Shown: piece after piece, positions 9,241 through 25,882 of the stretch
Layout of the letters: the number at the start of each line of letters is the position of its first letter
How positions within the stretch are numbered: position 1 is the stretch's first letter
Assembly (NCBI GenBank): GCA_012813795.1
Contig: GCA_012813795.1_4087.1
Reading direction: 5' to 3' (one strand)
Length of the DNA stretch: 64,000 bases
From: a phage
The notes under the pieces: model-generated
Seen by the model: the letters and a program-made list of their open reading frames with translations, nothing else
The model's database searches: none
What the model was told of the DNA's origin: nothing
Position numbers and translations under genes: made by a program

Positions 9241-9246
9241 ATAGTT

Positions 9247-12910: not shown

Positions 12911-12975
12911 TTTGTTTCTCCAGTTATTCCGTGTTGGTATAGATACATAGTACTAAAACATTTGAGTACTGTCAA

Positions 12976-13194
12976 TTAGATAATTGCATATTTCTTTAAA
13001 GATAATGCGTCTTGTGTTGGCTGATACTCCACGCCGTTACCGTTATCTACTTTAACTAATAAACCTTTGTCAATTAGTTTTTTAATAGTCCGTTGGCCTT
13101 GTTGAAAATTGGTAAAGTGTGAATCATTACGAAAGGTGTAACCATGTTGGATAGCTACATCAATAGTTTTCTTTTCGACTTTAGATAAATTCAT
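12976..13194 (-). CDS. hypothetical small protein, possibly winged-helix DNA-binding
   Basis: 72-aa ORF; QRTIKKLIDKGLLVKV resembles a recognition helix plus wing. Confidence 0.4.
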   Translation of the reverse strand: MNLSKVEKKTIDVAIQHGYTFRNDSHFTNFQQGQRTIKKLIDKGLLVKVDNGNGVEYQPTQDALSLKKYAII

Positions 13195-13248
13195 TTTGTT
13201 ACTCCCCGTGTTGGTATGTACATATAGTACTAAAACATTTGAGTACTG

Positions 13249-13503
13249 TCAACGTGATATTAGTTTTATTTTCTTATTATATTGTTGGTGTTCATAGAGG
13301 TTCATCTTTCCGGTATTCTCGATTACTATCCTGTTGTTAGTGTCCACATCGATTACACGCAGTTTTCCGTTGCTTAACTTCCTCGGTAATAGATTACCAT
13401 TAATAAACTCATTAGCGAGCGTGACGGCCTTTGTGATGATTCTCTGAGGGGCTTTATAGTGTACCCGCAAGATATTATCTTTAGATAGTTGTACCTTAAT
13501 CAT
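13249..13503 (-). CDS. hypothetical small protein
   Basis: 84-aa ORF. Confidence 0.5.
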   Translation of the reverse strand: MIKVQLSKDNILRVHYKAPQRIITKAVTLANEFINGNLLPRKLSNGKLRVIDVDTNNRIVIENTGKMNLYEHQQYNKKIKLISR

Positions 13504-13565
13504 TTTAGTTTATCCTATAAAAAAGGCGGGAACTGATCCCGCCGTGTTGTTAGTACTGCAAGTTA

Positions 13566-13961
13566 TTAGATAACCTGGCGGCGTTTACTGAATACTGTTA
13601 CACGATTACCCTTACGATCATGTCGGATCTCTTTCTGGTTGCGAACCAGTTCACTTGGACGCTTGAGGTTTGCCAGGTGATCCGCGTGAGTCCAAGCGGT
13701 ATGGTTTGCCTGTACTTTGATATCAGAACCAGCGATAAACTCATCTTGTGCGTCAAGTATTGCCGCCAGCATATCCGCTCGTTTTAGTTCTGCTGCTGTC
13801 AGTACTGGTTCAGGTGAATTCACAATATCAGAGATTTCTTTGAACTGTACGGCCCAGCGTTGGCCTTTCGGTGCTGTCGTTCCCATGTCTTTAAATGCTG
13901 CTCCTTCCTCGCGTGCAACAATACGGGCAGCTTCACGGGTAGCGTAGAATTTAGTAATCAT
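13566..13961 (-). CDS. hypothetical protein; paralogue of 24881..25147
   Basis: Start placed at the second ATG (MITKFYATREAAR) with better RBS spacing; shares ATFKDMG and C-terminal HDRKGNRVTV with 24881..25147. Confidence 0.55.
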   Translation of the reverse strand: MITKFYATREAARIVAREEGAAFKDMGTTAPKGQRWAVQFKEISDIVNSPEPVLTAAELKRADMLAAILDAQDEFIAGSDIKVQANHTAWTHADHLANLKRPSELVRNQKEIRHDRKGNRVTVFSKRRQVI

Positions 13962-14056
13962 GGTATACATCCTATTAGTTAAGTTAGTACTACAAGTTAG
14001 AGTCTATTATAAAGTACTATCTGGGCAATGTCAAATAGTACTTTAAATGGATTCTA

Positions 14057-14380
14057 TTACATGTCTTTCTTACGTTTTACATCGTTGTAGCGAACTGTTA
14101 TTTCTTTGTTGATCTCTTTTTCTATTTGATGAATAACTTTTTCTTTCGGGTTGAAACCTATAACGGTTTCTTTAATGATCTCCAAGCCTGTGTATTCGCC
14201 TTGTGTGCCGTAACCGTAAGTAAAGGTTTCATGTCCTAAATCCTCCCAGCGATCACCAATCAAAGCAGACACGTAGCAAGAGTGGTAAGTATTGCCGTGT
14301 GAATCAGTCCACCGATTAACATTAATGTCAAAGGAAGTAATAATTTTCAGTTCTACTTTCTGGGTGAGGATCATAGCCAT
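14057..14380 (-). CDS. hypothetical protein; paralogue of 19661..19984
   Basis: Trimmed to Met MAMILTQK; shares RWTDS.GNTYHSC.VS...FTYGY...VKRKKD with 19661..19984. Confidence 0.6.
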   Translation of the reverse strand: MAMILTQKVELKIITSFDINVNRWTDSHGNTYHSCYVSALIGDRWEDLGHETFTYGYGTQGEYTGLEIIKETVIGFNPKEKVIHQIEKEINKEITVRYNDVKRKKDM

Positions 14381-14468
14381 TTTTATTTCTCTCTCTTTGT
14401 TAGGAGGGGAACCGTTTCCCCTCACTTGATGTAAACTATTATACAGTACTAAGATACTTTGTCAATAC

Positions 14469-14651
14469 TTATTTTTTGGAAAGTTTACGCATTAATTCTA
14501 CGCTTTCTTGTGAACGTTTTGCTACCTGGCAATCTGCATGGGCAGTAAACATTTTTGTATAGTCTGACGCTTTGCCACCGAACCGAGCGGCACGTTCACG
14601 GGCACTTGGAACTAATACGATTTCTTTCTTACAGATAGTGCACTTAGCCAT
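14469..14651 (-). CDS. hypothetical small Cys-containing protein
   Basis: Trimmed to Met MAKCTICKKEI; the ~85-bp upstream cassette is an exact duplicate of the one at 14381-14468. Confidence 0.5.
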   Translation of the reverse strand: MAKCTICKKEIVLVPSARERAARFGGKASDYTKMFTAHADCQVAKRSQESVELMRKLSKK

Positions 14652-14739
14652 TTTTATTTCTCTCTCTTTGTTAGGAGGGGAACCGTTTCCCCTCACTTGA
14701 TGTAAACTATTATACAGTACTAAGATACTTTGTCAATAC

Positions 14740-15015
14740 TTAAGTATTGTAAATGTCGTGAATAGTGATAAAGTTTTTACGACCGTAAACCTGTAAATCA
14801 GTATCAATGTAGTGCTTATCAAGTACATCCTCGACGCTTAACGCGGTGTCGTGAATATCTTCGTAGAATTGAGGATCTACAATCTTGCTTAAGTCATCCG
14901 GCGTTAACTTATCGTTAAGCCATTGAACCGCCTGGATATCTGCATCACGTTTCCAGTCTTGCAGGTTAGTAGTAAGTACTTGTTCGATTTCGTTAGCTGT
15001 CAGTAGAATCCGCAT
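14740..15015 (-). CDS. hypothetical small protein
   Basis: 91-aa ORF. Confidence 0.5.
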   Translation of the reverse strand: MRILLTANEIEQVLTTNLQDWKRDADIQAVQWLNDKLTPDDLSKIVDPQFYEDIHDTALSVEDVLDKHYIDTDLQVYGRKNFITIHDIYNT

Positions 15016-15337
15016 TTTATGTTTCCTTCTCAGTGGTTGATGTAAGTATTATACTCGTTTACTTTCTATTGTCAAACTATTTTATCAGGGGAGTTTTTCG
15101 TGTGCCTTACTCCTGGGCTACTTAACGGGGTTACTTGTTTCATTCCCCGTCCTGATGTAAAACATTATACTTGATTCTAAGTACAATGCAAGTACTTTTT
15201 TATAATAGTTTTCAGTACTAGATAATACGTCCACCAGCATATAATAGATACATTTATGCACCCTGTGGGCTGATTTGTTTCTATGCGTATATAATAGCAA
15301 AGGGACTGACCGGAGTCAATCCCTTTTTCAATTATTT

Positions 15338-15487
15338 TTAAACTTCTTTTGGGTTGCGATATGTGATAGCGTTAGGGTACATTTTCTTTAAGTTATTCCA
15401 TGCCTGGTTAAGACTATAACCGCTGGATCTTACTAGTTGGTGCATACCTTGCCCCAAAAATGTAACTTCGAATAAGTATTCTTTCAT
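15338..15487 (-). CDS. hypothetical small protein (49 aa, below the ORF-track threshold)
   Basis: Hand-translated MKEYLFEVTFLGQGMHQLV...; ATG overlaps the stop of 15484..15657. Confidence 0.35.
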   Translation of the reverse strand: MKEYLFEVTFLGQGMHQLVRSSGYSLNQAWNNLKKMYPNAITYRNPKEV

Positions 15488-15657
15488 GCTTGCACCTCGC
15501 GATCTGCTTTGCCTTTACGCCAGGCCGTTGCTAATTGTTCGCGTTGCCATACATCCAGCGATACGTAAAGTTTTGCGGTATCACCTTTCGGATATTCGCC
15601 AGTAGTACCCATCCGATAAAACAGATCTTTCAGTACTGTCAATTCTACCTGGATCAT
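15484..15657 (-). CDS. hypothetical small protein (57 aa, below the ORF-track threshold)
   Basis: Hand-translated MIQVELTVLKDLFYRMGTTGEYPKG...; promoter/stem-loop cassette at 15660-15730. Confidence 0.35.
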   Translation of the reverse strand: MIQVELTVLKDLFYRMGTTGEYPKGDTAKLYVSLDVWQREQLATAWRKGKADREVQA

Positions 15658-15744
15658 GTTACTTTCCTTTTTGTTAGGAGGGGAACTATTCCCCTCTCTA
15701 TGTAAAACATTATACTTGATTCTAAGTACTACACAAGTACTTTT

Positions 15745-15957
15745 TTAATCTTTCAGCCAATGATCTTGGATGAATTTTTCACCGAAGCCTTGCTGCATGG
15801 ATTGTAACAGGCGTTCACGGTGAGCGGCGGCAAATTGCTCAGTACTATGCGTTACACCTGGTTGATATCTGGATTCACCATTGGGGGCGATGTATTGTAC
15901 ATCCCACGGTTTAGCGTTAGTATCAGACCATTTACGAACGATTAGTTGACCTTGCAT
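15745..15957 (-). CDS. hypothetical small protein
   Basis: Trimmed to Met MQGQLIVRKW at 15957. Confidence 0.5.
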   Translation of the reverse strand: MQGQLIVRKWSDTNAKPWDVQYIAPNGESRYQPGVTHSTEQFAAAHRERLLQSMQQGFGEKFIQDHWLKD

Positions 15958-16043
15958 TTTTCTTTCCTCAGTACTGGGGAGAATCATTTCTCCCCTTCAT
16001 GTAACTTATTATACAGTACTATAATCTATTGTCCAGTACTTTT

Positions 16044-16232
16044 TTAAAGTTTATGAATTAATTCTTTATCTAAACGATAGCGTACATTATTAATTGTAAC
16101 AGCATTGTTTTTAATGCTACGCTGTACAGGTCCACCAGCAATAACAAACGTTGCCTTATTACCCCGAACAATGATAGCACTTCCTGGATTGCCGTATTCA
16201 TCTTGTACTAAAATACTTGATAATTGTTCCAT
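16044..16232 (-). CDS. hypothetical small protein
   Basis: 62-aa ORF. Confidence 0.5.
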   Translation of the reverse strand: MEQLSSILVQDEYGNPGSAIIVRGNKATFVIAGGPVQRSIKNNAVTINNVRYRLDKELIHKL

Positions 16233-16393
16233 TTTGTTTTCCTCAGTACTGGGAAGGGTTATCCTCCCCTTGATATAAAATATTATACACTATCTATCAG
16301 TACTGTCAATACTTTTTAGTACTTATTTAAACGCTCTCAAACGCATTCTAACGAGCTAATCTATTTTGTAGTACTATCGGATAGGTATATACT

Positions 16394-16425
16394 AAAAAGC
16401 CCACCAGCGTTAACCAGTGGGCTAT
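16394..16425 (-). terminator. intrinsic terminator (hairpin AGCCCAC...GTGGGCT plus U-run on minus RNA)
   Basis: Inverted repeat agcccac/gtgggct with a run of A on the plus strand 3' of the minus-strand gene ending at 16430. Confidence 0.5.
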
Positions 16426-16429
16426 AATC

Positions 16430-16573
16430 TTACATCTTGCGGATAATCTTAACAGTATCTTTCACCGATTTACCGTCTTGCTGGCATTGTTCGATCATTG
16501 CGTATTGTTCTGTGGTCAGATCTTCGCCAGTTTTTTCCAGTACTGCTTCGATGAATGAATCCAGTGCGATCAT
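16430..16573 (-). CDS. hypothetical small protein (47 aa, below the ORF-track threshold)
   Basis: Hand-translated MIALDSFIEAVLEKTGEDLTTEQYAMIEQCQQDGKSVKDTVKIIRKM. Confidence 0.35.
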   Translation of the reverse strand: MIALDSFIEAVLEKTGEDLTTEQYAMIEQCQQDGKSVKDTVKIIRKM

Positions 16574-16663
16574 TTTCTTTCTCTCTTAGGTTAAGTTAAC
16601 TACTGTTTATAAAACTTATTATACAGTACTATCGTATAGAGTCAATAGTACTGGTAATATATT

Positions 16664-16843
16664 TTAGCGGTAGTCGTCGTATGCTTTATTCAACTGGCGA
16701 ATGTAACTTTCAAAGGCTTCGTCTACCGTTTCATACTCCAGAACATAATCACCATAGGAAACTACATACATACCTTTTTGATCTTCAAACGTCATGATGA
16801 TAGAATCCAGACCAACGATTTCAGTTTTTGCGATGATAGCCAT
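16664..16843 (-). CDS. hypothetical small protein
   Basis: Trimmed to Met MAIIAKTEIVGL at 16843. Confidence 0.5.
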   Translation of the reverse strand: MAIIAKTEIVGLDSIIMTFEDQKGMYVVSYGDYVLEYETVDEAFESYIRQLNKAYDDYR

Positions 16844-16925
16844 TTTTAATTCCTTAGTAGTGTAGTTGATAAAATCTATTATGCCAGTACTATCAATCTT
16901 TGTCAATAGTACTGTGATAATATTT

Positions 16926-17138
16926 TTAGTTAATGATAGTCAGTGTAAAATTGTAATCCCCTGCCTGGTATAGTATTTTGTCGCCGAACGTACCAACACG
17001 TTTCATATTGCAATAGATACCCATAACATTTTTTACATCTTTGATATTCCGAACGCCTGTGATATCCTTGTTGAAATTTTCATGATCAGAAAATAAAACT
17101 TGTTTTGCATTTTTCAGTACAGTGCAGATATTAGCCAT
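16926..17138 (-). CDS. hypothetical small protein
   Basis: Trimmed to Met MANICTVLKNAKQ at 17138; upstream cassette is duplicated at 16844-16925, 17142-17217, 19985-20075 and 20289-20380. Confidence 0.5.
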   Translation of the reverse strand: MANICTVLKNAKQVLFSDHENFNKDITGVRNIKDVKNVMGIYCNMKRVGTFGDKILYQAGDYNFTLTIIN

Positions 17139-17217
17139 TTTGTTTTCCTTAGTTGTCTTGATAAAATCTATTATGCCAGTACTATCAATCATTGTCAATA
17201 GTACTGTGATAATAATT

Positions 17218-17577
17218 TTAATCCTGTAAACCGTTCGGGAAGAAATCGAGGCGATCATCGTCGTTCTCGCGTTCGGCGTAAGCACTTTCTAACGCCTCGC
17301 CAGTGTGATCATCAGTTAGATAATCATCCTCATAGTTCACATCCACACCAGTGATGAAAAACTGGCTATCGTCTGGATCATTGAAATTAATTTTCTGAAT
17401 GTTTACAATAACTGTATTGATTCCCAGGACACCGCCATCAGCCGTTACAAAGTACTGATAGTTTTCACATCCACCACTATTGAAACCGTAATTGATTTCG
17501 GCCCGACCATCATTTAAACGCAGTGCCTGGGCGATGATTTCGTTTTCAAAGTTAGATTGAGCAATTGAGATAGTCAT
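17218..17577 (-). CDS. hypothetical protein (acidic C-terminus)
   Basis: Trimmed to Met MTISIAQSNFEN at 17577. Confidence 0.55.
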   Translation of the reverse strand: MTISIAQSNFENEIIAQALRLNDGRAEINYGFNSGGCENYQYFVTADGGVLGINTVIVNIQKINFNDPDDSQFFITGVDVNYEDDYLTDDHTGEALESAYAERENDDDRLDFFPNGLQD

Positions 17578-18012
17578 GATTCGTTTCCTTATTACCAGGG
17601 GAAACCGTTTCCCCTCTCGATGTAAAACATTATACGCCAATTGAGATAGTTTGCAAGTACTTTTTAAAAATAGTTTTCAGTACTCAATACTTATATAATA
17701 GATACACTTATGCACCCGGTGGGCTAGTGAGCTATCTCTCAATGAATATATAATAGCAAAATGGCTGACCGAAGTCAACCACTTTTTTCATTTATTTTTT
17801 AGCTTTTAGAATCGCCGCCTTTCGCGTCATGCCTTGCTTGATGTACTCCTTTACTTTCGCTTTACGTGCTTTCGCTTTATCTGCTTTCGTTTTAGGAGTA
17901 CTGTAAATTAAACCGTTAGGATTCATTTAAATCACCATAAAGAATAGATATGTTACTAACAATACCGCGATCAATGCACCGCCCAGGGCCGAACTGTAAT
18001 AAGCTAATGATT

Positions 18013-18165
18013 TCATTTTTTAGCCTGAAAATAATGTTTAATTTGAGCGGCGGTCAGTGCACAATTACGCAGGAAGTTTTCTGTATAACTGCGGCGAGTA
18101 CTGAAAGAAAATTGACCTTTGCCGTTGCCGATAGTAACATCAAACCGAGCATTATATTGTTTCAT
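18013..18165 (-). CDS. hypothetical small protein (50 aa, below the ORF-track threshold)
   Basis: Hand-translated MKQYNARFDVTIGNGKGQFSFSTRRSYTENFLRNCALTAAQIKHYFQAKK; two more short ORFs follow downstream. Confidence 0.3.
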   Translation of the reverse strand: MKQYNARFDVTIGNGKGQFSFSTRRSYTENFLRNCALTAAQIKHYFQAKK

Positions 18166-18476
18166 TTTGATTCTCCTTGTATCAGGGGAGAACCATTTCC
18201 CCCCTCTATGTAAAACATTATACAGTACTAAAAACTAATTGCAAGTATTATTTTTTAGATTTACGCAAACTTTCTACCATCTCAGGAGTAAGGCCCGGCG
18301 GGTAGGAAACCACTTCATCAACGAAACGTAAAGGGAATACCCCAGCGAAAGGTGAACATGCTTTCTTGGTATTACTCTTTTTTGATGCTTTCATTTCATA
18401 TTCCTTAATTAGTGGGGAGAACCATTTCTCCCCTCTATGTAAAACATTATACAGTACTGAAAACTAATTGCAAGTA

Positions 18477-18719
18477 TTATTTTAAACTTTGTGCGACTAA
18501 TTTCGCACGGTCAATCATATACTGCCATTTTTGGATCTCTTCTGGTAGAAAACGATATTCACCAATAACAATAGTGATACACTTTTCAGCCTGGTCAATG
18601 TATGTAGTATCAATCTCGACTTGAACGGGTACACGTTCGCCGTATTCAGTTCCTGGGATAATACAATCATTATCATAAGTAACAGTAGTTGCAGTGTCTT
18701 TGATTAAAATGGTTTCCAT
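18477..18719 (-). CDS. hypothetical small protein
   Basis: Trimmed to Met METILIKDTATT at 18719. Confidence 0.55.
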   Translation of the reverse strand: METILIKDTATTVTYDNDCIIPGTEYGERVPVQVEIDTTYIDQAEKCITIVIGEYRFLPEEIQKWQYMIDRAKLVAQSLK

Positions 18720-18789
18720 TATACTTTCCTCGTTAGGTGTAAGGGGAAAAAGTTTCCCCTCTATGTAAAACATTATACAGTACTGAAAA

Positions 18790-18999
18790 CTAATTGCAAG
18801 TATTATTTTCTAAAAAATGATTGTATGCTGCATCAACCACTCTTTCGATAACATACGCCATCGGCACGTATCCAACTACATGACTACAATAGAAAGGACT
18901 ACGATTAGAATCATCGTATGCAAATACTTTTTCAGGATCTGCATCAATCACATACATATTAACTTTGAGTATGTCAATCTTATCCTGTACAGTAAGCAT
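18790..18999 (-). CDS. hypothetical small protein
   Basis: 69-aa ORF. Confidence 0.5.
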   Translation of the reverse strand: MLTVQDKIDILKVNMYVIDADPEKVFAYDDSNRSPFYCSHVVGYVPMAYVIERVVDAAYNHFLENNTCN

Positions 19000-19004
19000 A
19001 TTAA

Positions 19005-19259
19005 TTAACCTTTTAAGTACTGGCTCAAATAGTCTTTTTGTTCTTCGGTGATTGGCGGCATCTTCCCTAGTACTGGATTGATGATATAATCCCCTGTAAC
19101 GTCATGATCCGCGTTCTCAGTACTAGCAACCGGACGAATACGGGCCATCGCCTGGGCTTGTTCTACGCTGTATTGTTCGTATAGTCTGCATTCTTCCGGT
19201 GTAGGCATTACATCGCTACGCTGCATAGGTTTAATGATGCTTTCTTGATTAACGTTCAT
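19005..19259 (-). CDS. hypothetical small protein
   Basis: 84-aa ORF. Confidence 0.5.
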   Translation of the reverse strand: MNVNQESIIKPMQRSDVMPTPEECRLYEQYSVEQAQAMARIRPVASTENADHDVTGDYIINPVLGKMPPITEEQKDYLSQYLKG

Positions 19260-19310
19260 GGTATTATCCTCAATATTAGCGGCCTAAATCGACCGCTAAC
19301 GATGTTTTGA

Positions 19311-19580
19311 TTAATAGGTGTATGGTTGACGCTCAAACAATGATTGCACGTTGTACGCCCCGCTAATGGGCTTCGCTGGCAAATCAATTTTATATTGCTC
19401 ACGCTTAAAGATGATAAAACGACAATTGTTCTTAATATCAAAATTGATTGAACGTTCCAGGAGTTTTCCATCGTGCACAAATACAAGATAACCGCTTGCT
19501 ACTTGTTTTGTAGTACTGGTTGCAACCATCGACCGACGAACATGCGTACCTGCATCGATTAAAGTACTGATATTTTTCAT
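19311..19580 (-). CDS. hypothetical small protein
   Basis: 89-aa ORF with RBS AGAGGA; preferred over overlapping 19256..19486. Confidence 0.5.
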   Translation of the reverse strand: MKNISTLIDAGTHVRRSMVATSTTKQVASGYLVFVHDGKLLERSINFDIKNNCRFIIFKREQYKIDLPAKPISGAYNVQSLFERQPYTY

Positions 19581-19660
19581 TTTACTATCCTCTTAATTTG
19601 ATTTAATTTCTTTCCCCTATGCAGACACTATATCAAAGTATCTGCATAAAGTAAAGCTAA

Positions 19661-19984
19661 TTAAAGATCTTTTTTGCGTTTAACATTCTGTACAGTACAA
19701 TGCAACGGGATAGACAAATCATTACACAAACGATAGAGGGAGGTTTCAACAGTATCAAGCCCGTCTACTGATTCCTTTAAGAGATCTAACGCCGTTTGTT
19801 GATATGCATCTTCATAGCCATAAGTAAATGATTCAACCGCCAGATCATTCACACCGTTATCCAGTTCAACGCTTACATGACAAGAATGATAAGTATTGCC
19901 ATATGAATCAGTCCAACGTTTACCGTCAACATTGATTGCACGGATTGCAGCCAGGGAAACGGTGTTAATGATAGTTTTAGCCAT
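19661..19984 (-). CDS. hypothetical protein; paralogue of 14057..14380
   Basis: 107-aa ORF with the shared RWTDS.GNTYHSC and VKRKKD motifs. Confidence 0.6.
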   Translation of the reverse strand: MAKTIINTVSLAAIRAINVDGKRWTDSYGNTYHSCHVSVELDNGVNDLAVESFTYGYEDAYQQTALDLLKESVDGLDTVETSLYRLCNDLSIPLHCTVQNVKRKKDL

Positions 19985-20075
19985 TTTAGTATTCCTTAAA
20001 TTAATATGCGTTGTCTTGATAAAATCTATTATGCCAGTACTATCAAACTATGTCAATAGTACTGTGATAATATTT

Positions 20076-20288
20076 TTACTTACTTTCTTTAGCTGCTTTA
20101 TGTGCTTCCACTGCCATAACCACATCAGCACGAACAAAGTTAGCAACCGTATCAGTGTAATATTTGATTGCATCGTCAACTTCTGCGAACGTCCGATACA
20201 TACCACACCAAGATACTTTATAACCTGCTTTCACTTGTTCCAGCTTAACCAGTGATTTGTTTACTTTGATTTTAGTAATGATAGCCAT
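20076..20288 (-). CDS. hypothetical small protein
   Basis: 70-aa ORF behind a duplicated promoter cassette. Confidence 0.5.
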   Translation of the reverse strand: MAIITKIKVNKSLVKLEQVKAGYKVSWCGMYRTFAEVDDAIKYYTDTVANFVRADVVMAVEAHKAAKESK

Positions 20289-20600
20289 TTTTTGTTTCCT
20301 CTTAGTTGTCTTGATAAAATCTATTATGCCAGTACTATCAAACTATGTCAATAGTACTGTGATAATATTTTTACTTACTTTTTGCTTTCTTTGATGCTTC
20401 AACCTGGTCAGCCCACTCTTTACCCCATACTTGAGCATTATAGTGATACTGACAAAGAGCAACGCCCCGCTTTAAACCAGTAATAGATTTTTTACCACAT
20501 TGACAAGTTTTCATTTTTCGTTTCCTCTTAGTGGGGAGAATCATTTCTCCCCTTGATGTAATGTATTATACTTTATCCGATTTACTTTGCAAGTACTTTT

Positions 20601-20828
20601 TTAATTTAATTCATCTAGGCAAAGGATACGATCTACACCTAAATCAGTTAAGCTAATAGACGGCACTTGATAGGTTTCAATGTATGCTACATCGGCCCAC
20701 TGACCGAACTCACCTGCCGCCCAGTTATACATTGCAAAATGTAATTCCGCACCTTTCTTATTAGTAATTACAGCAACAGTAGAAGAATTGCCAGTAGTAC
20801 CAGTTACGCGAGTGATTACGATAGCCAT
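20601..20828 (-). CDS. hypothetical small protein
   Basis: 75-aa ORF. Confidence 0.5.
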   Translation of the reverse strand: MAIVITRVTGTTGNSSTVAVITNKKGAELHFAMYNWAAGEFGQWADVAYIETYQVPSISLTDLGVDRILCLDELN

Positions 20829-21270
20829 TGTTTTGATTCCTATTCAGTAGTTGATGTATGTATTATGTCAGTACTTAAAACTATTGTCAAACTATTTTTT
20901 AAAGTTTATCAATGATTGATGCCGTTTCATTGATAGTCTTGCCGTGTTTTGCACACGCGATAACTGCTTTAAATTCCTTTGATGACCAATCTTTTTTCCT
21001 GCATACTGACATTACTTGTAAAGTGAAACAATCCAGTTCATAAGTATTCATCTTTATATCCTCAGTTAGTTAAGGTGTCTCGCCTTGATGTAATTAATTA
21101 TACGCTAATCTCTTAATCGTGCAAGTACTTTTTATTAGTTTTTATAAAATACTTTTAACGCTCTCAATCGCATTCTAACGGCCTTAACGCCACCAGCTAG
21201 GGCGATGTATCACATAAACGAAAAAAGCCCGTAGAATTGATTCTACGAGCTTTTAAGCTGGTTGATTGTA

Positions 21271-21678
21271 TTACTTACAGTTATAGACTATGATCCCGAC
21301 CGTCCCGTGTCCAATGACTTCAACGTTATACACTAACTTGCCATTTACACGCTCGCGAGCATAAAAAACGCGTTCATTCTCGGCATCGCGATACGCTGAT
21401 AAAAATTTACGGTTTGGATACGCTTTCAGTACTGGCGACTCAGTGAAAAAGTCACCGATAACTACACTAAAATGATCCCCGTGTTCTGTTAATGGTATAC
21501 TACGCGGATCAGTAAATTGCGGACGGTTATCAATAACAAAATATGGATTCACTGTACAAATCTTATCGCCCATCTCTGAATAAGTTGGCTTAGGATCATT
21601 AGCCTGGATGGATGATTTAGGGGCCGTACATCCCACCGCCAACAGTACACAACTAATAACCGCAATTTTTTTAAACAT
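21271..21678 (-). CDS. putative lipoprotein
   Basis: 135 aa; N-terminus MFKKIAVISCVLLAVGC is a signal peptide with lipobox. Confidence 0.6.
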   Translation of the reverse strand: MFKKIAVISCVLLAVGCTAPKSSIQANDPKPTYSEMGDKICTVNPYFVIDNRPQFTDPRSIPLTEHGDHFSVVIGDFFTESPVLKAYPNRKFLSAYRDAENERVFYARERVNGKLVYNVEVIGHGTVGIIVYNCK

Positions 21679-21711
21679 AATGTTTACTCCTATAAAATTG
21701 TATTTAAAAGA

Positions 21712-21734
21712 AAATCCCCTAGCAATCAGGGGAT
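21712..21734 (-). terminator. intrinsic terminator (AATCCCCT...AGGGGATT hairpin, U-run on minus RNA)
   Basis: Perfect 8-bp inverted repeat just 3' of gene 21743..22225. Confidence 0.55.
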
Positions 21735-21742
21735 TCGTTTGA

Positions 21743-22225
21743 TTATGCTACATCTTTACGGTGAGCTTCGATCCATTCCTCGCGAGTCATACCGCTGGCG
21801 TTAATCGCGTCCAGTACTACGGCAATGCAGTTACCGCGTACTGGTACAGTGTATTCCTCGCCATTATCCAGTACTACCGTGACACGTTCTTGAATCCATT
21901 TTTTAGCTTTTACTTCTGGCTTGTCTTCCCCGTATTTCGCTGCCAGGGCTTTACGGGCCATTTCGGTAACTACTTCCAGATCAAGCCCAGCGACGGCGGC
22001 GTTAATATCTTCAATCGTTTTCTGCAATTCTGCTTCGCGTGCTGCCTTCTCTGCTTCAATTGCCGCCGCTTTATTAGCTTGCAGTTCTTTCGCTTCGCTG
22101 TACGCAATGTTAAAATTGTTGCGTACTGCTTTCATGGTATCGCTATCCAGTTCAGCCAGGATCTCTGCCGCTACATTAGTTTCATTTGCTACCAGTGCTT
22201 TGATGAATGATTTTACGTTAGCCAT
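21743..22225 (-). CDS. hypothetical Ala/Glu/Lys-rich helical protein
   Basis: Trimmed to Met MANVKSFIKAL at 22225 with RBS GAGGA. Confidence 0.6.
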   Translation of the reverse strand: MANVKSFIKALVANETNVAAEILAELDSDTMKAVRNNFNIAYSEAKELQANKAAAIEAEKAAREAELQKTIEDINAAVAGLDLEVVTEMARKALAAKYGEDKPEVKAKKWIQERVTVVLDNGEEYTVPVRGNCIAVVLDAINASGMTREEWIEAHRKDVA

Positions 22226-22426
22226 TATGTAATTCCTCAATTAAAGTTTAGTTTACGTTAGATAGTGTATCAAAGTTTTCTCGACGTGTCCAGTTTTTCG
22301 TTCGACTTACTGGCGGTCTACTTAGTGCTCCCCGTCTTGATGTAATACATTCTACGCCTTTTTGTGGTAATGTCAACTACTTTTTTAAAACTATTTTCAA
22401 AGTATTCCAGTACTACGATACTACAA

Positions 22427-22452
22427 AAACAAAAAAGCCCACCAGGTGGGCT
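22427..22452 (-). terminator. intrinsic terminator (AGCCCACC-UGGU-GGGCU hairpin plus U-run on minus RNA)
   Basis: Inverted repeat with A-run on plus strand immediately 3' of gene 22459..22689. Confidence 0.6.
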
Positions 22453-22458
22453 ATGTAC

Positions 22459-22689
22459 TTAATCAGTAAGTAAAATATTAAACACTTTGCCATTTAACGT
22501 TATTGGTGTACTGCTACCAGGCTTGAGATCAGTTAGTACACCTGCAATAGCTTTTTCATTGGCGACCTTTCCAGTGTCCAATAGTACTACAGTACTGATA
22601 AGATTAACGCTCGTTTCAATATCATAATGCACGGCGTTAAGGAGTTGTGTAGTACTTCCAGCGTTAAGTAAAACTATTCGCTTAGTCAT
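22459..22689 (-). CDS. hypothetical small protein
   Basis: 76-aa ORF. Confidence 0.5.
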   Translation of the reverse strand: MTKRIVLLNAGSTTQLLNAVHYDIETSVNLISTVVLLDTGKVANEKAIAGVLTDLKPGSSTPITLNGKVFNILLTD

Positions 22690-22767
22690 GGTATTACCCC
22701 TTATACCAGGGGAACCGTTCCCCCTATGTAAAACATTATACGCGTTTAAAAACTATTGTATAGTACT

Positions 22768-23004
22768 TTATGATTTTTTATAAAACATTTCAGCAGTGAT
22801 ATTTTTACCCGTTGGTTGTACTTTATCCAGAATTTTTTGATGTCCAGGGCGACCAAATGAATAAGATCCGTAAACCGTAAACCAGTAGTTACCCTCAGTG
22901 TTTACATGTACAGCACAATAGGGAACGCCCCGCGATTCATCACTAGTAAAGTGTGCTACCGTTCCCGTTACATTCGAAGACGTTGATTTGATTTGTTCGA
23001 CCAT
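22768..23004 (-). CDS. hypothetical small protein; paralogue of 24154..24387
   Basis: Shared GVPYCAVHVNT.G.YW.TVYG.YSF.RP.H.KIL..V.PTGK.ITAE. Confidence 0.6.
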   Translation of the reverse strand: MVEQIKSTSSNVTGTVAHFTSDESRGVPYCAVHVNTEGNYWFTVYGSYSFGRPGHQKILDKVQPTGKNITAEMFYKKS

Positions 23005-23247
23005 TTTCTTATTCCTTAGTTACCAGGGGAACCGCTCCCCCTATGCAAAACATTATACGCGTTTAAAAACTAATAGCAAGTATTTTAATAAAAAGTATTT
23101 GGAAAATAATTGTTGACAAGTGCATCCAGTACTGGCATAATTACTACATCAAGACGAAACAGTCACTAACCCACCGGGTGCCGAGATCCGTCTATTAAAT
23201 GATTCAGTACTGAAAAAGTAACGGGGAGTTATTATCTCCCCGCGTTG

Positions 23248-23469
23248 TTATTTTGTAAGGTATAAACAGAAGTCACCTTTATTTGCTACGCCGCCAGTGT
23301 AACGCGATGAATAGTTAGTAACGTCCTGGACTTCTGCTATTACCAGTGTATCATCATTCAATTCGTCGCAGAAGCAAACGGCTGGATCTTTTACGCCGAT
23401 ATTGTCGGCATGTTCCCGCATAGATTTAACCAGTGCTTCAAGTTGGGAAAGGGTAGTAATGTTAGCCAT
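23248..23469 (-). CDS. hypothetical small protein
   Basis: Trimmed to Met MANITTLSQ at 23469. Confidence 0.5.
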   Translation of the reverse strand: MANITTLSQLEALVKSMREHADNIGVKDPAVCFCDELNDDTLVIAEVQDVTNYSSRYTGGVANKGDFCLYLTK

Positions 23470-23555
23470 TGTATTTTCCTCATTACCAGGGAGAACCATT
23501 TCTCCCCTTGATGTAAACTATTATACAGTACTAAAAACTAATTGCAAGTACTTTT

Positions 23556-23759
23556 TTAATTTAATTGCTTTAACACATAATCATAAACACCACGCACATC
23601 ATTGATCATCGCCTCACGGTTAGCAGGTAACGCAGAAGGATCGCCACTATCCCAGGCATTGATAAAACTCCCCAAATCATGATAGATTTTATTTTGTAAG
23701 CCGATCAACTGTAATTCTTTTTCTTCAAGCTCTTTGATACGGTCGATTAAATCACTCAT
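23556..23759 (-). CDS. hypothetical small protein
   Basis: 67-aa ORF. Confidence 0.5.
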   Translation of the reverse strand: MSDLIDRIKELEEKELQLIGLQNKIYHDLGSFINAWDSGDPSALPANREAMINDVRGVYDYVLKQLN

Positions 23760-23776
23760 TAGATAATCCTCAGTAC

Positions 23777-24064
23777 TTAATTGTAAGATCCGCAGCGGTT
23801 GCAGTAGTTCCCGTCTTCCTCGTCATCGTCAACGAATTGACCGACGAAATGATCTACTTTCTCTTTGAGGCTTTTATAATCCTCTTCTACTTCCTTTAAA
23901 CGTTTCTGGTAGTATTCCAGGGCTTGCACATACGCCGCCTCAGCAGTTTTCTCCCGCATAGCTAAATTCATGCCGCGTGTTTCATCATAAAGCCAATAAC
24001 CATCGGTGCACTGGCTGATAGAAAATGATTTGGTTAACACTTTATAGTCAATTACTTTGCTCAT
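23777..24064 (-). CDS. hypothetical small protein with C-terminal Cys cluster
   Basis: 95-aa ORF; C-terminal YCNRCGSYN. Confidence 0.5.
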   Translation of the reverse strand: MSKVIDYKVLTKSFSISQCTDGYWLYDETRGMNLAMREKTAEAAYVQALEYYQKRLKEVEEDYKSLKEKVDHFVGQFVDDDEEDGNYCNRCGSYN

Positions 24065-24153
24065 TAGATAATCCTCTGTAAATGCAGGGGAACCATTTCC
24101 CCCGCCTCGATATAAAGTATTATACTCGTTTAAACTTAGTATGCAAGTACTTT

Positions 24154-24387
24154 TTAGTGCTTAGTAAAATATTTTTCTGCGGTGATATCCTTTCCGGTAG
24201 GCTTCACTACTTCCAGGATCTTACTATGTGCCGGACGAGCAAACGAATACCCCCCGTATACAGTTAACCAATAGTCACCGTCAGTGTTTACGTGTACAGC
24301 ACAATAGGGTACACCTTTATCAGTATCAGCGATGGAATGTACTTTCGTTCCGGTCCGGCTTGTAGTCGTTTGAATTTGTTCGATCAT
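24154..24387 (-). CDS. hypothetical small protein; paralogue of 22768..23004
   Basis: 77-aa ORF. Confidence 0.6.
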   Translation of the reverse strand: MIEQIQTTTSRTGTKVHSIADTDKGVPYCAVHVNTDGDYWLTVYGGYSFARPAHSKILEVVKPTGKDITAEKYFTKH

Positions 24388-24444
24388 GATGCTTACTCCT
24401 GGTTATAGGCGGGAACCACTCCCGCCATTGATTCAGTACTGAAA

Positions 24445-24675
24445 TTACATTCCAACCATTGCCGCACGAATTGCAGTAGTGCTATACTTAAAGCCGTCCG
24501 GCGTTGACTGACCGCGTAAAGTATCCATCATTAGCCGGGCGGCGGCATCGCGGTTATTTGTCTCATTGATGCAATCCAGGGCGTGACGATACAACCAGCT
24601 ATCATTGTTAATCCAAAGGCTTACATTCCAATGAGTTTTGTTTTTGTGACCTAAGAACATTTTTGATTTAGCCAT
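24445..24675 (-). CDS. hypothetical small protein; paralogue of 25230..25469
   Basis: Shared GHKNKT.WNVSLWINND and C-terminal PDGFKYSTTAIRAAMVGM. Confidence 0.6.
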   Translation of the reverse strand: MAKSKMFLGHKNKTHWNVSLWINNDSWLYRHALDCINETNNRDAAARLMMDTLRGQSTPDGFKYSTTAIRAAMVGM

Positions 24676-24880
24676 TTTGAAAATCCTCGTTTGATTTGAG
24701 CGGGGAACTATTCCCCGTCCTGATGTAAAACATTATACGCCTTTAAACATAGTTTGCAAGTACTTTTTAAAAATAGTTTTAATCACTTTCCTATAGATAC
24801 ACTCCCGCACCCTATGGGCTATCGCCTTGTATCCGGCTTGTAAGTATTATCTCACTAAGCCGGATAATGGTCAAGTACTT

Positions 24881-25147
24881 TTATTCAAGTACTGCAATCT
24901 TTTTAGTACGGTACACAGTAACACGGTTGCCCTTGCGGTCGTGCTTTATTTCTACCACTCGACGCGATACACTATCAGGACTTTTTAACGCCGATAACCA
25001 GTACTGTAACGATCTGGCGGTGCTACGCTTTACAATGACCCAACGTTCACCCCTGGCTGATTGTACGCCCATATCTTTAAACGTTGCACCGTCAACCTTT
25101 GCCGCTTGCCGAGCTTGTTCACGCGTTTCAAAGTATATAATATTCAT
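24881..25147 (-). CDS. hypothetical protein; paralogue of 13566..13961
   Basis: Trimmed to Met MNIIYFETREQAR at 25147. Confidence 0.55.
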   Translation of the reverse strand: MNIIYFETREQARQAAKVDGATFKDMGVQSARGERWVIVKRSTARSLQYWLSALKSPDSVSRRVVEIKHDRKGNRVTVYRTKKIAVLE

Positions 25148-25229
25148 GCTGATACCCCATCGTTGATGTATGAATAAAATCCTATTATAAAGTACTATCA
25201 CCGTGCAATAGTACTTTAAATCTATTCTC

Positions 25230-25469
25230 TTACATTCCAACCATCGCGGCACGGATCGCCGTAGTGCTATACTTGAATCCGTCTGGAGTTTTATCTTGTC
25301 CAGTTTGCTCTAAAAATAGCATCATATGACGGGCCGCATCATTACGATTAGTATTAGCGTCGATAAATTCTTTCGCCAGACGATACAATGACTCATCGTT
25401 ATTAATCCAAAGGCTTACATTCCACTGAGTTTTGTTTTTGTGACCGTTGAAAGTTTTAGTAGTAGCCAT
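25230..25469 (-). CDS. hypothetical small protein; paralogue of 24445..24675
   Basis: 79-aa ORF. Confidence 0.6.
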   Translation of the reverse strand: MATTKTFNGHKNKTQWNVSLWINNDESLYRLAKEFIDANTNRNDAARHMMLFLEQTGQDKTPDGFKYSTTAIRAAMVGM

Positions 25470-25554
25470 AATTAAAAATCCTCTTAATTATAGTGGGGAA
25501 CTATTCCCCACCTGATAGAAAGTATTATACGCCTTTAAACTTAGTTTGCAAGTA

Positions 25555-25788
25555 CTATTTTTTCAGTACTGGTAAACCTTTGATCTCACCTGGCTGTACT
25601 TCCTCAAAGGTCGCCGCCATCATACGGCTATCATCTTCCTTGCACTCTTCCATTGCATCACAAAAATGATTAATAACGTCCGGTGCAACGTCAACCACAT
25701 CAAACAAGCCAACCTCAGTGCAACGGCTTAAAGCGTTTAACAGGTCAGTCAGTGCAACGGATTGAGAAACAGTTAAGATAGTACTCAT
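25555..25788 (-). CDS. hypothetical small acidic protein
   Basis: 77-aa ORF. Confidence 0.5.
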   Translation of the reverse strand: MSTILTVSQSVALTDLLNALSRCTEVGLFDVVDVAPDVINHFCDAMEECKEDDSRMMAATFEEVQPGEIKGLPVLKK

Positions 25789-25882
25789 AAAATTAATCTC
25801 TTAATTATAGTGGGGAACTATTCCCCACCTGATAGAAAGTATTATACGCCTTTAAACTTAGTATGCAAGTACTTTTTAAAAC

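What the first reader, a model, noticed from the sequence alone, without database searches (positions are those of the whole stretch)
13566..25469. Dispersed paralogue pairs indicating segmental duplication
At least five gene pairs are clear paralogues: 14057/19661, 13566/24881, 22768/24154, 24445/25230 and 9247/9585. Together with the duplicated promoter cassettes this suggests repeated cassette-mediated duplication and reshuffling.
Basis: seen in the sequence. Interest (0 to 1): 0.5.

Follow-up and report, generated by a model that had tools for sequence, protein, structure and literature searches.

The report
Old gene pairs in cassette-shuffled phage region
The five gene pairs are real but ancient single-gene relatives in the early-gene end region of a giant E. 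coli phage. Small genes there are gained, lost and moved by recombination between repeated promoter-hairpin cassettes, a process already described for T4-like phages.

Summary
They are not a segmental duplication. Every unit is one gene, with or without its promoter. No two-gene order is repeated. DNA similarity is at most 74% over at most 334 nt. Third-codon identity is 31-53%, against 68-95% for orthologues within the genus.

The window comes from an Asteriusvirus jumbo coliphage (121Q/PBECO4 type). The region corresponds to its ~21-kb direct terminal repeat. It holds about 55 small minus-strand genes and 30 copies of a ~90-nt cassette: sigma-70 promoter, GGGG..CCCC hairpin, Shine-Dalgarno sequence.

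Pairs A and B have both copies in every relative examined. C2, D1 and E2 are rare alleles. D2 is closer to a Phapecoctavirus gene (94% aa) than to 121Q's (90%).

Four single-gene modules flanked by near-identical cassettes are absent from relatives that carry one hybrid cassette at the site. This is the PeSL pattern of T4-like phages. So "cassette-mediated reshuffling" is supported, while recent or segmental duplication is not.

In passing: the palindrome AGTACT is 12-fold over-represented.

The parts
7460..27920 (-). Early-gene region equivalent to the ~21-kb direct terminal repeat (DTR) of Asteriusvirus; it contains all five pairs and all type-1 cassettes. The boundaries are approximate.
   Evidence: Megablast to fEgEco12 positions 140-20862. 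The fEgEco12 DTR of 20,993 bp was confirmed by restriction digests (PMC13070987).
14057..14380 (-). A1, 107 aa, phrog_6246, function unknown.
   Evidence: Orthologues at 93-96% in G17, 121Q and ELP-22.
19661..19984 (-). A2, 107 aa, phrog_6246.
   Evidence: Orthologues at 93-98%. 35% identical to phi92 gp231.
13566..13961 (-). B1, 131 aa, phrog_8127.
   Evidence: Orthologues at 83-96%. Single homologue in RaK2-type genera.
24881..25147 (-). B2, 88 aa, phrog_8127; has its own hairpin-less promoter region, homologous to that of B1.
   Evidence: 14004-14062 against 25182-25235, 80%. Orthologues at 82-91%.
22768..23004 (-). C1, 78 aa, phrog_9227, flanked by two cassettes that are 88% alike.
   Evidence: (D15). 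Orthologues at 91-99% in G17, ELP-22, L007 and L008.
24154..24387 (-). C2, 77 aa, phrog_9227; a rare allele preceded only by a hairpin and Shine-Dalgarno sequence (no promoter).
   Evidence: Best match in 50,697 phage records is 68%. 86-91% orthologues occur only in unannotated Asteriusvirus-size contigs. Upstream sequence.
24445..24675 (-). D1, 76 aa, Pfam DUF7249 / phrog_871; a rare allele.
   Evidence: Best match in phage records is 78.5%. One 99% match on a 1.3-kb contig. Groups with the second Asteriusvirus copy.
25230..25469 (-). D2, 79 aa, DUF7249.
   Evidence: 94% aa and 88.6% nt identical to Phapecoctavirus DIJ07P1, against 90% aa to 121Q.
9247..9504 (-). E1, 85 aa, phrog_34861.
   Evidence: Orthologues at 79-92%.
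9585..9851 (-). E2, 88 aa, phrog_34861; in tandem upstream of E1.
   Evidence: Best match in phage records is 37%. One 98% match on an ENA contig with the same neighbours.
9521..9903 (-). E2 module (hairpin, E2, promoter half of the next cassette); relatives have a 60-nt type-2 promoter here instead.
25562..25878 (-). Single-gene module g25555 plus its cassette, flanked by cassettes 96% alike; absent from L007, 121Q, G17, L008 and fEgEco12, which carry one hybrid cassette.
18484..18809 (-). Single-gene module g18477 plus its cassette; absent from G17, 121Q, L008 and fEgEco12.
20087..20381 (-). Single-gene module g20076 plus a type-2 cassette; absent from G17, ELP-22 and fEgEco12.
14474..14742 (-). 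Single-gene module g14469 plus its cassette (the two flanking cassettes are 96% identical over 109 nt, and identical in the 75 aligned columns compared); absent from 121Q and L008.
   Evidence: (D10).
8284..8379 (-). Type-1 cassette (promoter, hairpin, Shine-Dalgarno).
   Evidence: nhmmer E 1e-20; hairpin dG -15.9.
9176..9250 (-). Type-1 cassette.
9501..9586 (-). Type-1 cassette between E2 and E1.
10126..10214 (-). Type-1 cassette.
10457..10551 (-). Type-1 cassette.
11010..11098 (-). Type-1 cassette.
11507..11591 (-). Type-1 cassette.
11805..11899 (-). Type-1 cassette.
12618..12693 (-). Divergent type-1 cassette.
14387..14473 (-). Type-1 cassette upstream of A1.
14657..14742 (-). Type-1 cassette upstream of g14469.
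15141..15201 (-). Type-1 cassette, promoter part only; no ORF follows for about 100 nt.
15658..15747 (-). Type-1 cassette.
15962..16046 (-). Type-1 cassette.
16232..16318 (-). Type-1 cassette.
17574..17667 (-). Type-1 cassette.
18162..18253 (-). Type-1 cassette.
18393..18483 (-). Type-1 cassette.
18727..18809 (-). Type-1 cassette.
20519..20603 (-). Type-1 cassette.
21078..21134 (-). Partial type-1 cassette (promoter part).
22328..22387 (-). Partial type-1 cassette (promoter part).
22686..22771 (-). Type-1 cassette downstream of C1.
23002..23088 (-). Type-1 cassette upstream of C1.
23470..23558 (-). Type-1 cassette.
24067..24156 (-). Type-1 cassette downstream of C2; it lies inside the C1/C2 DNA similarity.
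24685..24770 (-). Type-1 cassette upstream of D1; part of the D duplication unit.
25478..25561 (-). Type-1 cassette upstream of D2; part of the D duplication unit. Nucleotide homology to Phapecoctavirus ends inside it, at 25508.
25793..25878 (-). Type-1 cassette.
26246..26338 (-). Type-1 cassette.
16825..16936 (-). Type-2 cassette (AGTACT-A-TTGACA-N17-CATAAT, no hairpin).
   Evidence: (D5).
17117..17228 (-). Type-2 cassette.
19975..20086 (-). Type-2 cassette upstream of A2.
20270..20381 (-). Type-2 cassette.

Best explanation
The window comes from an Asteriusvirus (121Q/PBECO4-type) jumbo coliphage. The five pairs are old, diverged, single-gene paralogues belonging to five families of small early proteins of unknown function. 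They lie in the terminal-repeat early region. That region is built of about 55 mostly one-gene modules, most of them headed by a ~90-nt PeSL-like cassette: an extended sigma-70 promoter, then a GGGG..CCCC hairpin at the 5' end of the transcript, then a Shine-Dalgarno sequence.

Shown: homologous recombination between these dispersed direct repeats deletes, inserts, replaces and relocates single-gene modules among related phages. Shown: whole cassette-plus-gene or hairpin-plus-gene units are shared with unrelated coliphages (Stephanstirmvirinae).

Inferred: second copies arose long ago as by-products of the same process, either by unequal exchange between cassettes or by re-insertion or capture of a module at another cassette. 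They then diverged to near-saturation at silent sites. Copy number and position differ between lineages through differential loss and replacement. The result is a mosaic of gene cassettes, not a segmental duplication.
For: Identity of the phage and region.
Pairs are real and each falls in one family.
Thirty cassettes with one architecture.
Hairpins are stable in 26 of 29 cassettes (mean dG -12.5 kcal/mol, mean z -3.35).
Age: third-codon identity is 31-53% for the pairs against 68-95% for orthologues. Both A and both B copies are syntenic at 82-98% in G17, 121Q, ELP-22 and, where the fetched stretch reaches, L007 and L008. B is single-copy in RaK2-type genera and two-copy in Asteriusvirus records.
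Cassette recombination: four cassette-gene-cassette modules are matched in relatives by one hybrid cassette whose upstream flank matches the upstream copy and whose downstream flank matches the downstream copy. 27 of 51 breakpoints lie in cassettes against 17% expected, p about 9e-9, and 44 of 51 are non-coding. Adjacent cassettes are more similar than distant ones (74% against 67%, permutation p about 1e-4; 13 of 26 have a neighbour as best match).
Duplication units include cassettes: D is cassette plus gene, 24768-24445 against 25560-25230 at 74%; C is gene plus downstream cassette at 72%.
Relocation: a C1-type gene sits in the C2 slot in 121Q.
Cross-subfamily exchange: D2 is 88.6% nt identical to Phapecoctavirus DIJ07P1 from the stop codon into the hairpin. 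About ten families are shared with phi92 and Phapecoctavirus in scrambled order, behind cassette-like sequences.
Concept and experimental precedent: PeSLs in T4-like phages (PMC2839356, PMC4122927).
Against: Relative to other non-coding DNA, breakpoints are not significantly enriched in cassettes (61% against 53%, p = 0.16). Selection for intact genes could therefore explain part of the pattern. BLAST alignment ends are also biased toward repeated sequence.
No recent, high-identity duplicate exists in this region, so the act of duplication by cassette exchange is inferred, not observed.
For pairs A, B and E the flanks keep no trace of a duplication unit beyond 42-59 nt.
The trees are neighbour-joining trees on proteins of 76-80 aa without support values.
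The cassette hairpins lack a T-run and are not flagged as terminators, unlike the terminator role measured for PeSL stem-loops.
Promoter activity, transcription start sites and mini-circles were not tested.
Confidence: 0.7

Rival explanations
1. Xenologues rather than duplicates. The second member of some or all pairs was captured separately from other phages sharing the same early-gene pool, by recombination at cassettes, and no duplication ever took place inside this lineage.
For: D2 is closer to Phapecoctavirus alleles than to D1 or to 121Q's orthologue, and D2-slot alleles of Asteriusviruses interleave with Phapecoctavirus alleles in the tree. A1 and A2 are as far from each other (37%) as from phi92 gp231 (32-35%). 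B1 is closer to the RaK2 homologue (41%) than to B2 (31%). g16926 is 84% identical to DIJ07P1 but only 70% to G17. C2, D1 and E2 are absent above 80% identity from all 50,697 phage records.
Against: The C1 and C2 clades are sisters relative to phi92 and other homologues. Family E was detected only in Asteriusvirus-type records (33 labelled Escherichia phage, 4 Salmonella phage, 310-383 kb), so no outside donor is known. Both copies of A and B are fixed at syntenic positions across the genus. D1 groups with the second D copy of other Asteriusviruses.
Confidence: 0.2
2. Recent segmental (multi-gene) duplication within this genome, followed by reshuffling.
For: Several pair members are close together: D2-B2-D1-C2 within 1.3 kb, and A1-B1 adjacent. 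Cassettes are repeated.
Against: No repeated gene order exists. The longest DNA repeats are 334 nt at 74% or shorter. Silent sites are near saturation. The A and B copies are conserved separately across the genus.
Confidence: 0.03
3. Artefact: the similarity comes from translated promoter cassettes, from low complexity, or from a collapsed or duplicated terminal repeat in the assembly.
For: Several ORF-to-ORF hits in the region are indeed translated cassettes, for example 14057/14469 leaders and + strand ORFs. Terminal repeats double the hit counts in some database records.
Against: The alignments cover whole proteins downstream of the true starts. Both members of each pair match full-length PHROG profiles. 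The copies are diverged, not identical, and each occurs once in the window.
Confidence: 0.01

Closest known systems
PeSLs (promoter-early stem-loops) of T4-like phages; Arbiol et al. 2010 (PMC2839356), Comeau et al. 2014 (PMC4122927)
   Same: Both are dispersed cassettes of roughly 70-100 nt. Each has a strong sigma-70-type promoter, an A-rich stretch upstream of the -35, a stem-loop that generally involves GGGG...CCCC, and a Shine-Dalgarno sequence and ATG at the 3' end. One PeSL subclass has the stem-loop downstream of the -10, as here. Both are concentrated in hyperplastic regions full of small ORFans. Both show single-gene indels between close relatives with crossover inside the cassette, leaving cassette-gene-cassette in one genome and a single hybrid cassette in the other.
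   Different: The host phage is an Asteriusvirus jumbo phage, not a T4-like virus as treated in those papers. The cassettes fill the ~21-kb terminal repeat. The hairpin lies in the 5' UTR without a T-run, so a terminator role is doubtful. The cassettes carry AGTACT boxes at the -35 and -10. Hairpin-plus-gene units are shared with another subfamily (Stephanstirmvirinae). Mini-circles and promoter or terminator activities were measured for PeSLs and are untested here.
Paralogous small-gene families reported in RaK2-like jumbo phages, e.g. 22 paralogous ORFs in vB_PcaM_CBB (PMC5259590)
   Same: These are related jumbo phages with long terminal repeats. They have RpoD-like promoters clustered in front of short hypothetical early genes and several internally homologous ORFs attributed to duplication.
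   Different: That paper lists the paralogues and promoters but, in the passages read, describes no cassette-mediated exchange, breakpoints or cross-genus sharing.
Morons / integron-like gene cassettes
   Same: Single genes travel with their own expression signals.
   Different: Morons are thought to insert by illegitimate recombination without conserved flanks. Integrons use an integrase and attC sites. Here the conserved regulatory cassette itself is the apparent recombination substrate, and no integrase was seen in the region.

Membership tests
PeSL-type mobile regulatory cassette | Strong sigma-70-like promoter (-35 and -10) with an A/T-rich upstream stretch | tested here: met
   The consensus is AAAAAGTACTTGCAA-N-TGTATAAT. 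The -10 is invariant in 28 aligned copies. The nine perfect 12-of-12 consensus matches, and 18 of the 21 sites scoring at least 11 of 12, are on the minus strand in front of genes. Activity was not measured.
PeSL-type mobile regulatory cassette | Adjacent stable stem-loop, generally GGGG...CCCC | tested here: met
   26 of 29 cassettes fold with dG of -8 kcal/mol or lower (mean -12.5, z -3.35). The stems vary while keeping their pairing.
PeSL-type mobile regulatory cassette | Shine-Dalgarno sequence and start codon of the downstream gene at the 3' end; stop codon of the upstream gene at the 5' end | tested here: met
   Alignments.
PeSL-type mobile regulatory cassette | Clustered in hyperplastic regions rich in small ORFans | tested here: met
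   30 of the 33 hits in the 64-kb window lie in 8.3-26.3 kb. Genes there are 40-194 aa and almost all lack Pfam hits.
PeSL-type mobile regulatory cassette | Indels or replacements between close relatives have crossover points within cassettes | tested here: met
   Four clean cases. 27 of 51 breakpoints lie in cassettes. The enrichment over other non-coding DNA is not significant (p = 0.16).
PeSL-type mobile regulatory cassette | Stem-loop acts as a transcription terminator or attenuator | tested here: inconclusive
   No T-run follows the cassette hairpins, and none is flagged by the terminator scan. ARNOLD called some of them terminators in the G17 record. No expression data are available.
PeSL-type mobile regulatory cassette | Formation of excised mini-circles during infection | not testable with these tools
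   Needs inverse PCR or long reads from infected cells.
PeSL-type mobile regulatory cassette | Occurs in T4-like myoviruses (as originally described) | tested here: not met
   The phage is an Asteriusvirus. This would extend the host range of the concept; it is not a sequence-family membership.
Segmental duplication | Colinear repeated block of two or more genes | tested here: not met
   Neighbours of the pair members differ: D2-B2, D1-C2, A1-B1.
Segmental duplication | Extended DNA identity between copies, including intergenic DNA | tested here: not met
   The longest repeat is 334 nt at 74%. Pairs A, B and E have only 42-59-nt patches.
Pfam DUF7249 (pair D) | Score above the Pfam gathering threshold (27 bits) | tested here: met
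   54.4 and 37.1 bits. The AlphaFold2 model has pLDDT 87 and four helices, with no significant PDB fold match.
Asteriusvirus direct-terminal-repeat early region | Colinear nucleotide homology to an experimentally delimited DTR | tested here: met
   Window 7587-27783 aligns to fEgEco12 20862-140. DTR 1-20,993 is reported in PMC13070987. The physical ends of this phage itself are unknown.

The most novel reading that the evidence does not exclude
The terminal-repeat early region of Asteriusviruses may be an integron-like capture platform. PeSL-type cassettes tagged with the genus-specific palindrome AGTACT (12-fold over-represented here, essentially absent from Stephanstirmvirinae) would serve as addresses for a dedicated or highly efficient recombination system. 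That system would import hairpin-plus-gene modules from unrelated co-infecting coliphages and re-promote them with resident AGTACT promoters. Gene families such as A-E would then expand and turn over as an arms-race repertoire of host-takeover or anti-defence proteins.
Probability: 0.2. Interest if true: 0.6.

Novelty: new member of a known kind. Interest (0 to 1): 0.33.

Why it matters
The paralogue pairs themselves are ordinary for jumbo phages. The useful result is that the PeSL mechanism of modular shuffling, documented so far only in T4-like phages, fits the terminal-repeat early region of Asteriusviruses base for base. It also shows that the same small early genes circulate between unrelated coliphage groups. 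This explains why these regions differ so much between therapeutic jumbo-phage isolates. It also warns against reading dispersed homologues as recent duplications, and it identifies defined junctions (four cassette-gene-cassette modules) that can be tested by inverse PCR. None of the Asteriusvirus genome papers returned by the literature search mention promoters or such cassettes, apart from one passing mention in the EJP2 paper, and two of them were searched directly.

Tried and rejected
- Rfam scan of the whole window at gathering thresholds: no hit.
- ARAGORN: no tRNA or tmRNA.
- Pfam: nothing for families A, B, C and E.
- PDB sequence search for D2 and A2: nothing at E up to 1.
- AlphaFold2 model of D2 (pLDDT 87) against the PDB with Foldseek: best E 5.3, so no fold assignment.
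- RNAalifold on the MAFFT alignment of 28 cassettes recovered only 5 consensus pairs, because the hairpins are out of register. Per-sequence folding was used instead.
- A strict promoter-plus-hairpin regular expression found almost nothing in the Phapecoctavirus and phi92 loci. The profile search was more sensitive and found 7 and 5 hits.
- The test of cassette enrichment among non-coding breakpoints was not significant (p = 0.16), so cassette specificity rests on the four explicit junction alignments.
- The word-index protein search for E2 returned one near-identical protein and no distant relatives.
- A literature search for AGTACT together with jumbo phages found nothing.
- I considered and rejected the idea that the pairs reflect terminal-repeat copies, because each copy is diverged and occurs once.

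Full report
**Provenance.** The window is 32-41% G+C. From about 7.5 to 28 kb nearly all genes lie on the minus strand, and the GC skew flips at 28 kb. Megablast of 13-26 kb finds about 90% identity to E. coli jumbo phages of the genus Asteriusvirus: BAU.Micro_ELP-22, JP4, G17, 121Q and fEgEco12. Window 7587-27783 is colinear with positions 20862-140 of fEgEco12. The 20,993-bp direct terminal repeat of fEgEco12 was confirmed by restriction digests (PMC13070987). The finding therefore lies in the terminal-repeat early region. The closest relative found is an unannotated 352-kb contig in an E. coli O157 assembly (L007, 91-97% nt).

**Observation.** Pairwise blastp confirms all five pairs.
- A, 14057/19661: 37% identity, E 1.6e-27.
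- B, 13566/24881: 31%, E 3e-15.
- C, 22768/24154: 62%, E 6e-38.
- D, 24445/25230: 68%, E 5e-34.
- E, 9247/9585: 34%, E 2e-18.

Both members of each pair match one PHROG: 6246, 8127, 9227, 871 and 34861, all of unknown function. Pair D is Pfam DUF7249. An all-against-all search finds no other genuine pair in 8-26 kb; the remaining hits are translated promoter cassettes.

**Cassettes.** Repeat finding, a promoter-plus-hairpin regular expression and a profile search give 30 copies of one element on the minus strand between 8284 and 26338, and only three weak copies elsewhere in the window.
- Read 5'->3' on the minus strand, the element is: an A-rich stretch; AGTACT overlapping TTGCAA or TTGACA; a 16-nt spacer ending in AGTACTG or similar; TATAAT; about 12 nt; a hairpin such as GGGGAGAA-ATGG-TTCTCCCC; about 8 nt; AAGGA; then ATG.
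- The -10 hexamer is invariant in 28 aligned copies.
- 26 of 29 predicted 5' UTRs fold at dG of -8 kcal/mol or lower, with mean -12.5 and mean z -3.35 against shuffles.
- The stems differ between copies while keeping their pairing.
- The hairpins lack a T-run and are not called terminators by the scan, which does find separate T-run terminators elsewhere.
- A second, hairpin-less cassette (TTGACA-N17-CATAAT bracketed by two AGTACT boxes) occurs four times.

**Are the pairs a segmental duplication?** No.
- The neighbours of the pair members differ. In transcription order the genes run D2-B2-D1-C2 ... C1 ... A2 ... A1-B1 ... E2-E1.
- With 400-nt flanks, DNA similarity is limited as follows.
  - D: cassette plus gene, 24768-24445 against 25560-25230, 334 nt at 74%.
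  - C: the 3' part of the gene plus the downstream cassette, 22929-22707 against 24315-24085, 72%.
  - B: a 59-nt promoter patch at 80%.
  - A: 42 nt inside the gene.
  - E: cassette matches only.
- Third-codon identity is 31% (A), 33% (B), 46% (C), 53% (D) and 34% (E). Orthologues within the genus show 68-95%.

**Comparative evidence on age.** Both A copies and both B copies have 82-98% orthologues at syntenic positions in G17, 121Q and ELP-22, and in L007 and L008 wherever the fetched stretch reaches.
- B: single-copy in RaK2, K64-1 and other related jumbo genera, and two-copy in Asteriusvirus records.
- C1: conserved at 91-99% in G17, ELP-22, L007 and L008, and at 82% in 121Q.
- C2: best match in 50,697 phage records is 68%. 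It has 86-91% orthologues in the same slot on two Asteriusvirus-size contigs that also carry C1.
- C tree: in a neighbour-joining tree the C1 and C2 clades are sisters relative to phi92 gp247. The single C gene of 121Q is C1-type but sits in the C2 slot.
- D1: best match in phage records is 78.5%. One 99% match lies on a 1.3-kb contig with different neighbours. D1 groups with the second D copy of other Asteriusviruses.
- E2: best match in phage records is 37%. One 98% match lies on a 3.8-kb ENA contig with the same neighbours.

**Exchange with other phage groups.** D2 is 94% aa and 88.6% nt identical to Phapecoctavirus DIJ07P1, against 90% aa to 121Q and G17 (third-codon identity 85% against 68% for 121Q).
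- The nucleotide homology runs from the stop codon to 25508, inside the hairpin part of the cassette.
- phi92 and DIJ07P1 carry the same GGGAATAGTTCCC hairpin and a TTGACA promoter in front of their D gene.
- D2-slot alleles of Asteriusviruses interleave with Phapecoctavirus alleles in the tree.
- About ten early-gene families of the window have homologues in the phi92 and Phapecoctavirus early regions: A, C, D, g10736, g16664, g16926, g20601, g23777, g25883, and weakly g11096.
- In those phages the order g16664-A-D-g20601-g16926 is kept. In the window the same families are dispersed.
- The cassette profile hits 7 and 5 sites in those loci, mostly in front of the shared genes.

**Direct evidence for cassette recombination.** Four single-gene modules (g25555, g18477, g20076, g14469) are flanked in the window by near-identical cassettes. 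They are absent from subsets of the relatives.
- At each empty site there is one cassette. Its upstream flank matches the window's upstream copy and its downstream flank matches the downstream copy. This is the topology described for PeSL ORFan192 (PMC2839356).
- 121Q lacks g18248 and g18477 together, between two cassettes.
- The E2 module (9521-9903) replaces a 60-nt type-2 promoter of relatives. The junctions are at the upstream stop codon and at the Shine-Dalgarno sequence of E1.
- Of 51 distinct homology breakpoints against six relatives, 27 lie in cassettes (17% expected by length, binomial p about 9e-9), and 44 are non-coding. Against other non-coding DNA the enrichment is not significant (61% against 53%, p = 0.16).
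- Adjacent cassettes are more alike than non-adjacent ones (74% against 67%, permutation p about 1e-4). 13 of 26 have an immediate neighbour as best match. Both results fit a model in which modules insert into, or are excised between, cassettes.

**Interpretation.**
- Shown: the pairs are real, old and single-gene. The region is a mosaic of cassette-headed modules. Modules are gained, lost, replaced and relocated at cassettes. At least one family is exchanged across subfamilies.
- Inferred: the second copies arose by unequal exchange between cassettes or by re-insertion or capture of modules. The hairpin acts on the transcript, either as a 5' stabiliser or as an attenuator. The proteins are early host-takeover factors.
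- Function of the proteins remains unknown. The D2 model is a confident four-helix protein without a PDB fold match.

**Comparison with known systems.** The cassettes meet the sequence-level definition of PeSLs: promoter, GGGG..CCCC stem-loop, Shine-Dalgarno and ATG, location in an ORFan-rich hyperplastic region, and crossovers within the cassette.
- They differ in host phage group, in filling a terminal repeat, in lacking a terminator-like T-run, and in carrying AGTACT boxes.
- Paralogous ORFs and clustered RpoD-like promoters in front of short early genes were reported for the related jumbo phage CBB, without a mechanism (PMC5259590).
- Apart from one mention of 'promoter' in the EJP2 paper, the Asteriusvirus genome papers returned by the search do not mention promoters or cassettes.

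**Side observations.**
- AGTACT occurs 252 times against 21 +/- 5 expected. Its density is 5-6.5 per kb in all Asteriusvirus loci, with 0-1 sites in 20-24 kb of phi92 and Phapecoctavirus.
- A composite terminator/promoter element is followed by a conserved non-coding motif.
- There are large tandem gene arrays on both sides of the terminal repeat.

Noticed in passing
whole window; densest at 7500-32200: The palindrome AGTACT occurs 252 times against 21.3 +/- 4.8 expected from dinucleotide shuffles (maximum 36). The next most frequent 6-bp palindrome occurs 73 times. Density is 6.3-6.7 per kb in 7.5-32.2 kb and 1.6-2.8 per kb elsewhere. In 7.6-26.4 kb, 46 of 113 sites lie inside genes. There are usually two per promoter cassette, at the -35 and abutting the -10. 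All Asteriusvirus loci show 5-6.5 per kb, but phi92 and Phapecoctavirus loci have 0-1 sites in 20-24 kb. A literature search found nothing.
   Followed up: partly
minus strand: 8850-8950, 11925-12030, 15235-15340, 17690-17795; partial at 24785-24820 and 26655-26690: A composite element lies directly after a stop codon. The hairpin AAAGGGATTGAC-TCCG-GTCAGTCCCTTT plus a T-run overlaps a TTGACT-N17-TATTAT promoter (stem-loop between -35 and -10). About 70 nt of non-coding sequence follows, with the conserved motif AGCCCAYAGGGTGCRNRRGTGTATCTAT, before the next cassette. It may be a small RNA or a protein-binding site. There is no Rfam hit.
   Followed up: partly
1700-6900, minus strand: A tightly packed tandem array of about 20 or more paralogous genes of roughly 70 aa (phrog_4148, 26-53% identity), often overlapping by 4 nt and without promoter cassettes. 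It lies just outside the terminal-repeat equivalent.
   Followed up: partly
28500-31950, minus strand: A second tandem array of paralogous genes of roughly 62 aa (phrog_11711), on the other side of the terminal-repeat equivalent.
   Followed up: partly
32246-45555, plus strand: An array of about 11 paralogous proteins of 290-450 aa with RCC1-like repeats (Pfam RCC1, RCC1_2 and, below its gathering score, WD40_RLD; phrog_4219). These correspond to 121Q gp234-248, annotated 'regulator of chromosome condensation'.
   Followed up: partly
50575-52140, plus strand: Five short ORFs of 46-58 aa that are 46-97% identical to each other. This is a local tandem repeat of unknown nature.
   Followed up: no
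26400-28000: About 1.5 kb has no convincing ORF at the position that corresponds to the physical left end of fEgEco12. It contains plus-strand consensus promoters at 26565, 26780 and 26905, GGGTGC-containing motifs on both strands, and the switch of coding strand and GC skew at about 28 kb.
   Followed up: no
21271-21678, minus strand: A 135-aa ORF has a lipoprotein-like N-terminus (MFKKIAVISCVLLAVGC). It has no homologue in the compared stretches of G17, 121Q, ELP-22, L007 and L008, where both flanking genes are conserved, and the nucleotide alignment to fEgEco12 skips it. It has no Pfam or PHROG hit. It looks like a lineage-specific insertion between a T-run terminator and g21743.
   Followed up: partly
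16926-17138, minus strand: g16926 is 97% identical to 121Q, L007 and L008 but only 70% to G17 and ELP-22. It is 84% aa and 82% nt identical to Phapecoctavirus DIJ07P1. This is a second case, besides D2, where allelic divergence inside the genus exceeds that to another subfamily.
   Followed up: partly
12029-12613, minus strand: A 194-aa early protein has weak, sub-threshold protein-kinase similarity (Pkinase E 0.003). It is annotated as a Ser/Thr kinase in fEgEco12 and is conserved at 91-92%.
   Followed up: no
15075-15201, minus strand: The cassette promoter at 15191 is followed by about 100 nt without an ORF before a second consensus promoter at 15075. This may be an untranslated early transcript.
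   Followed up: no
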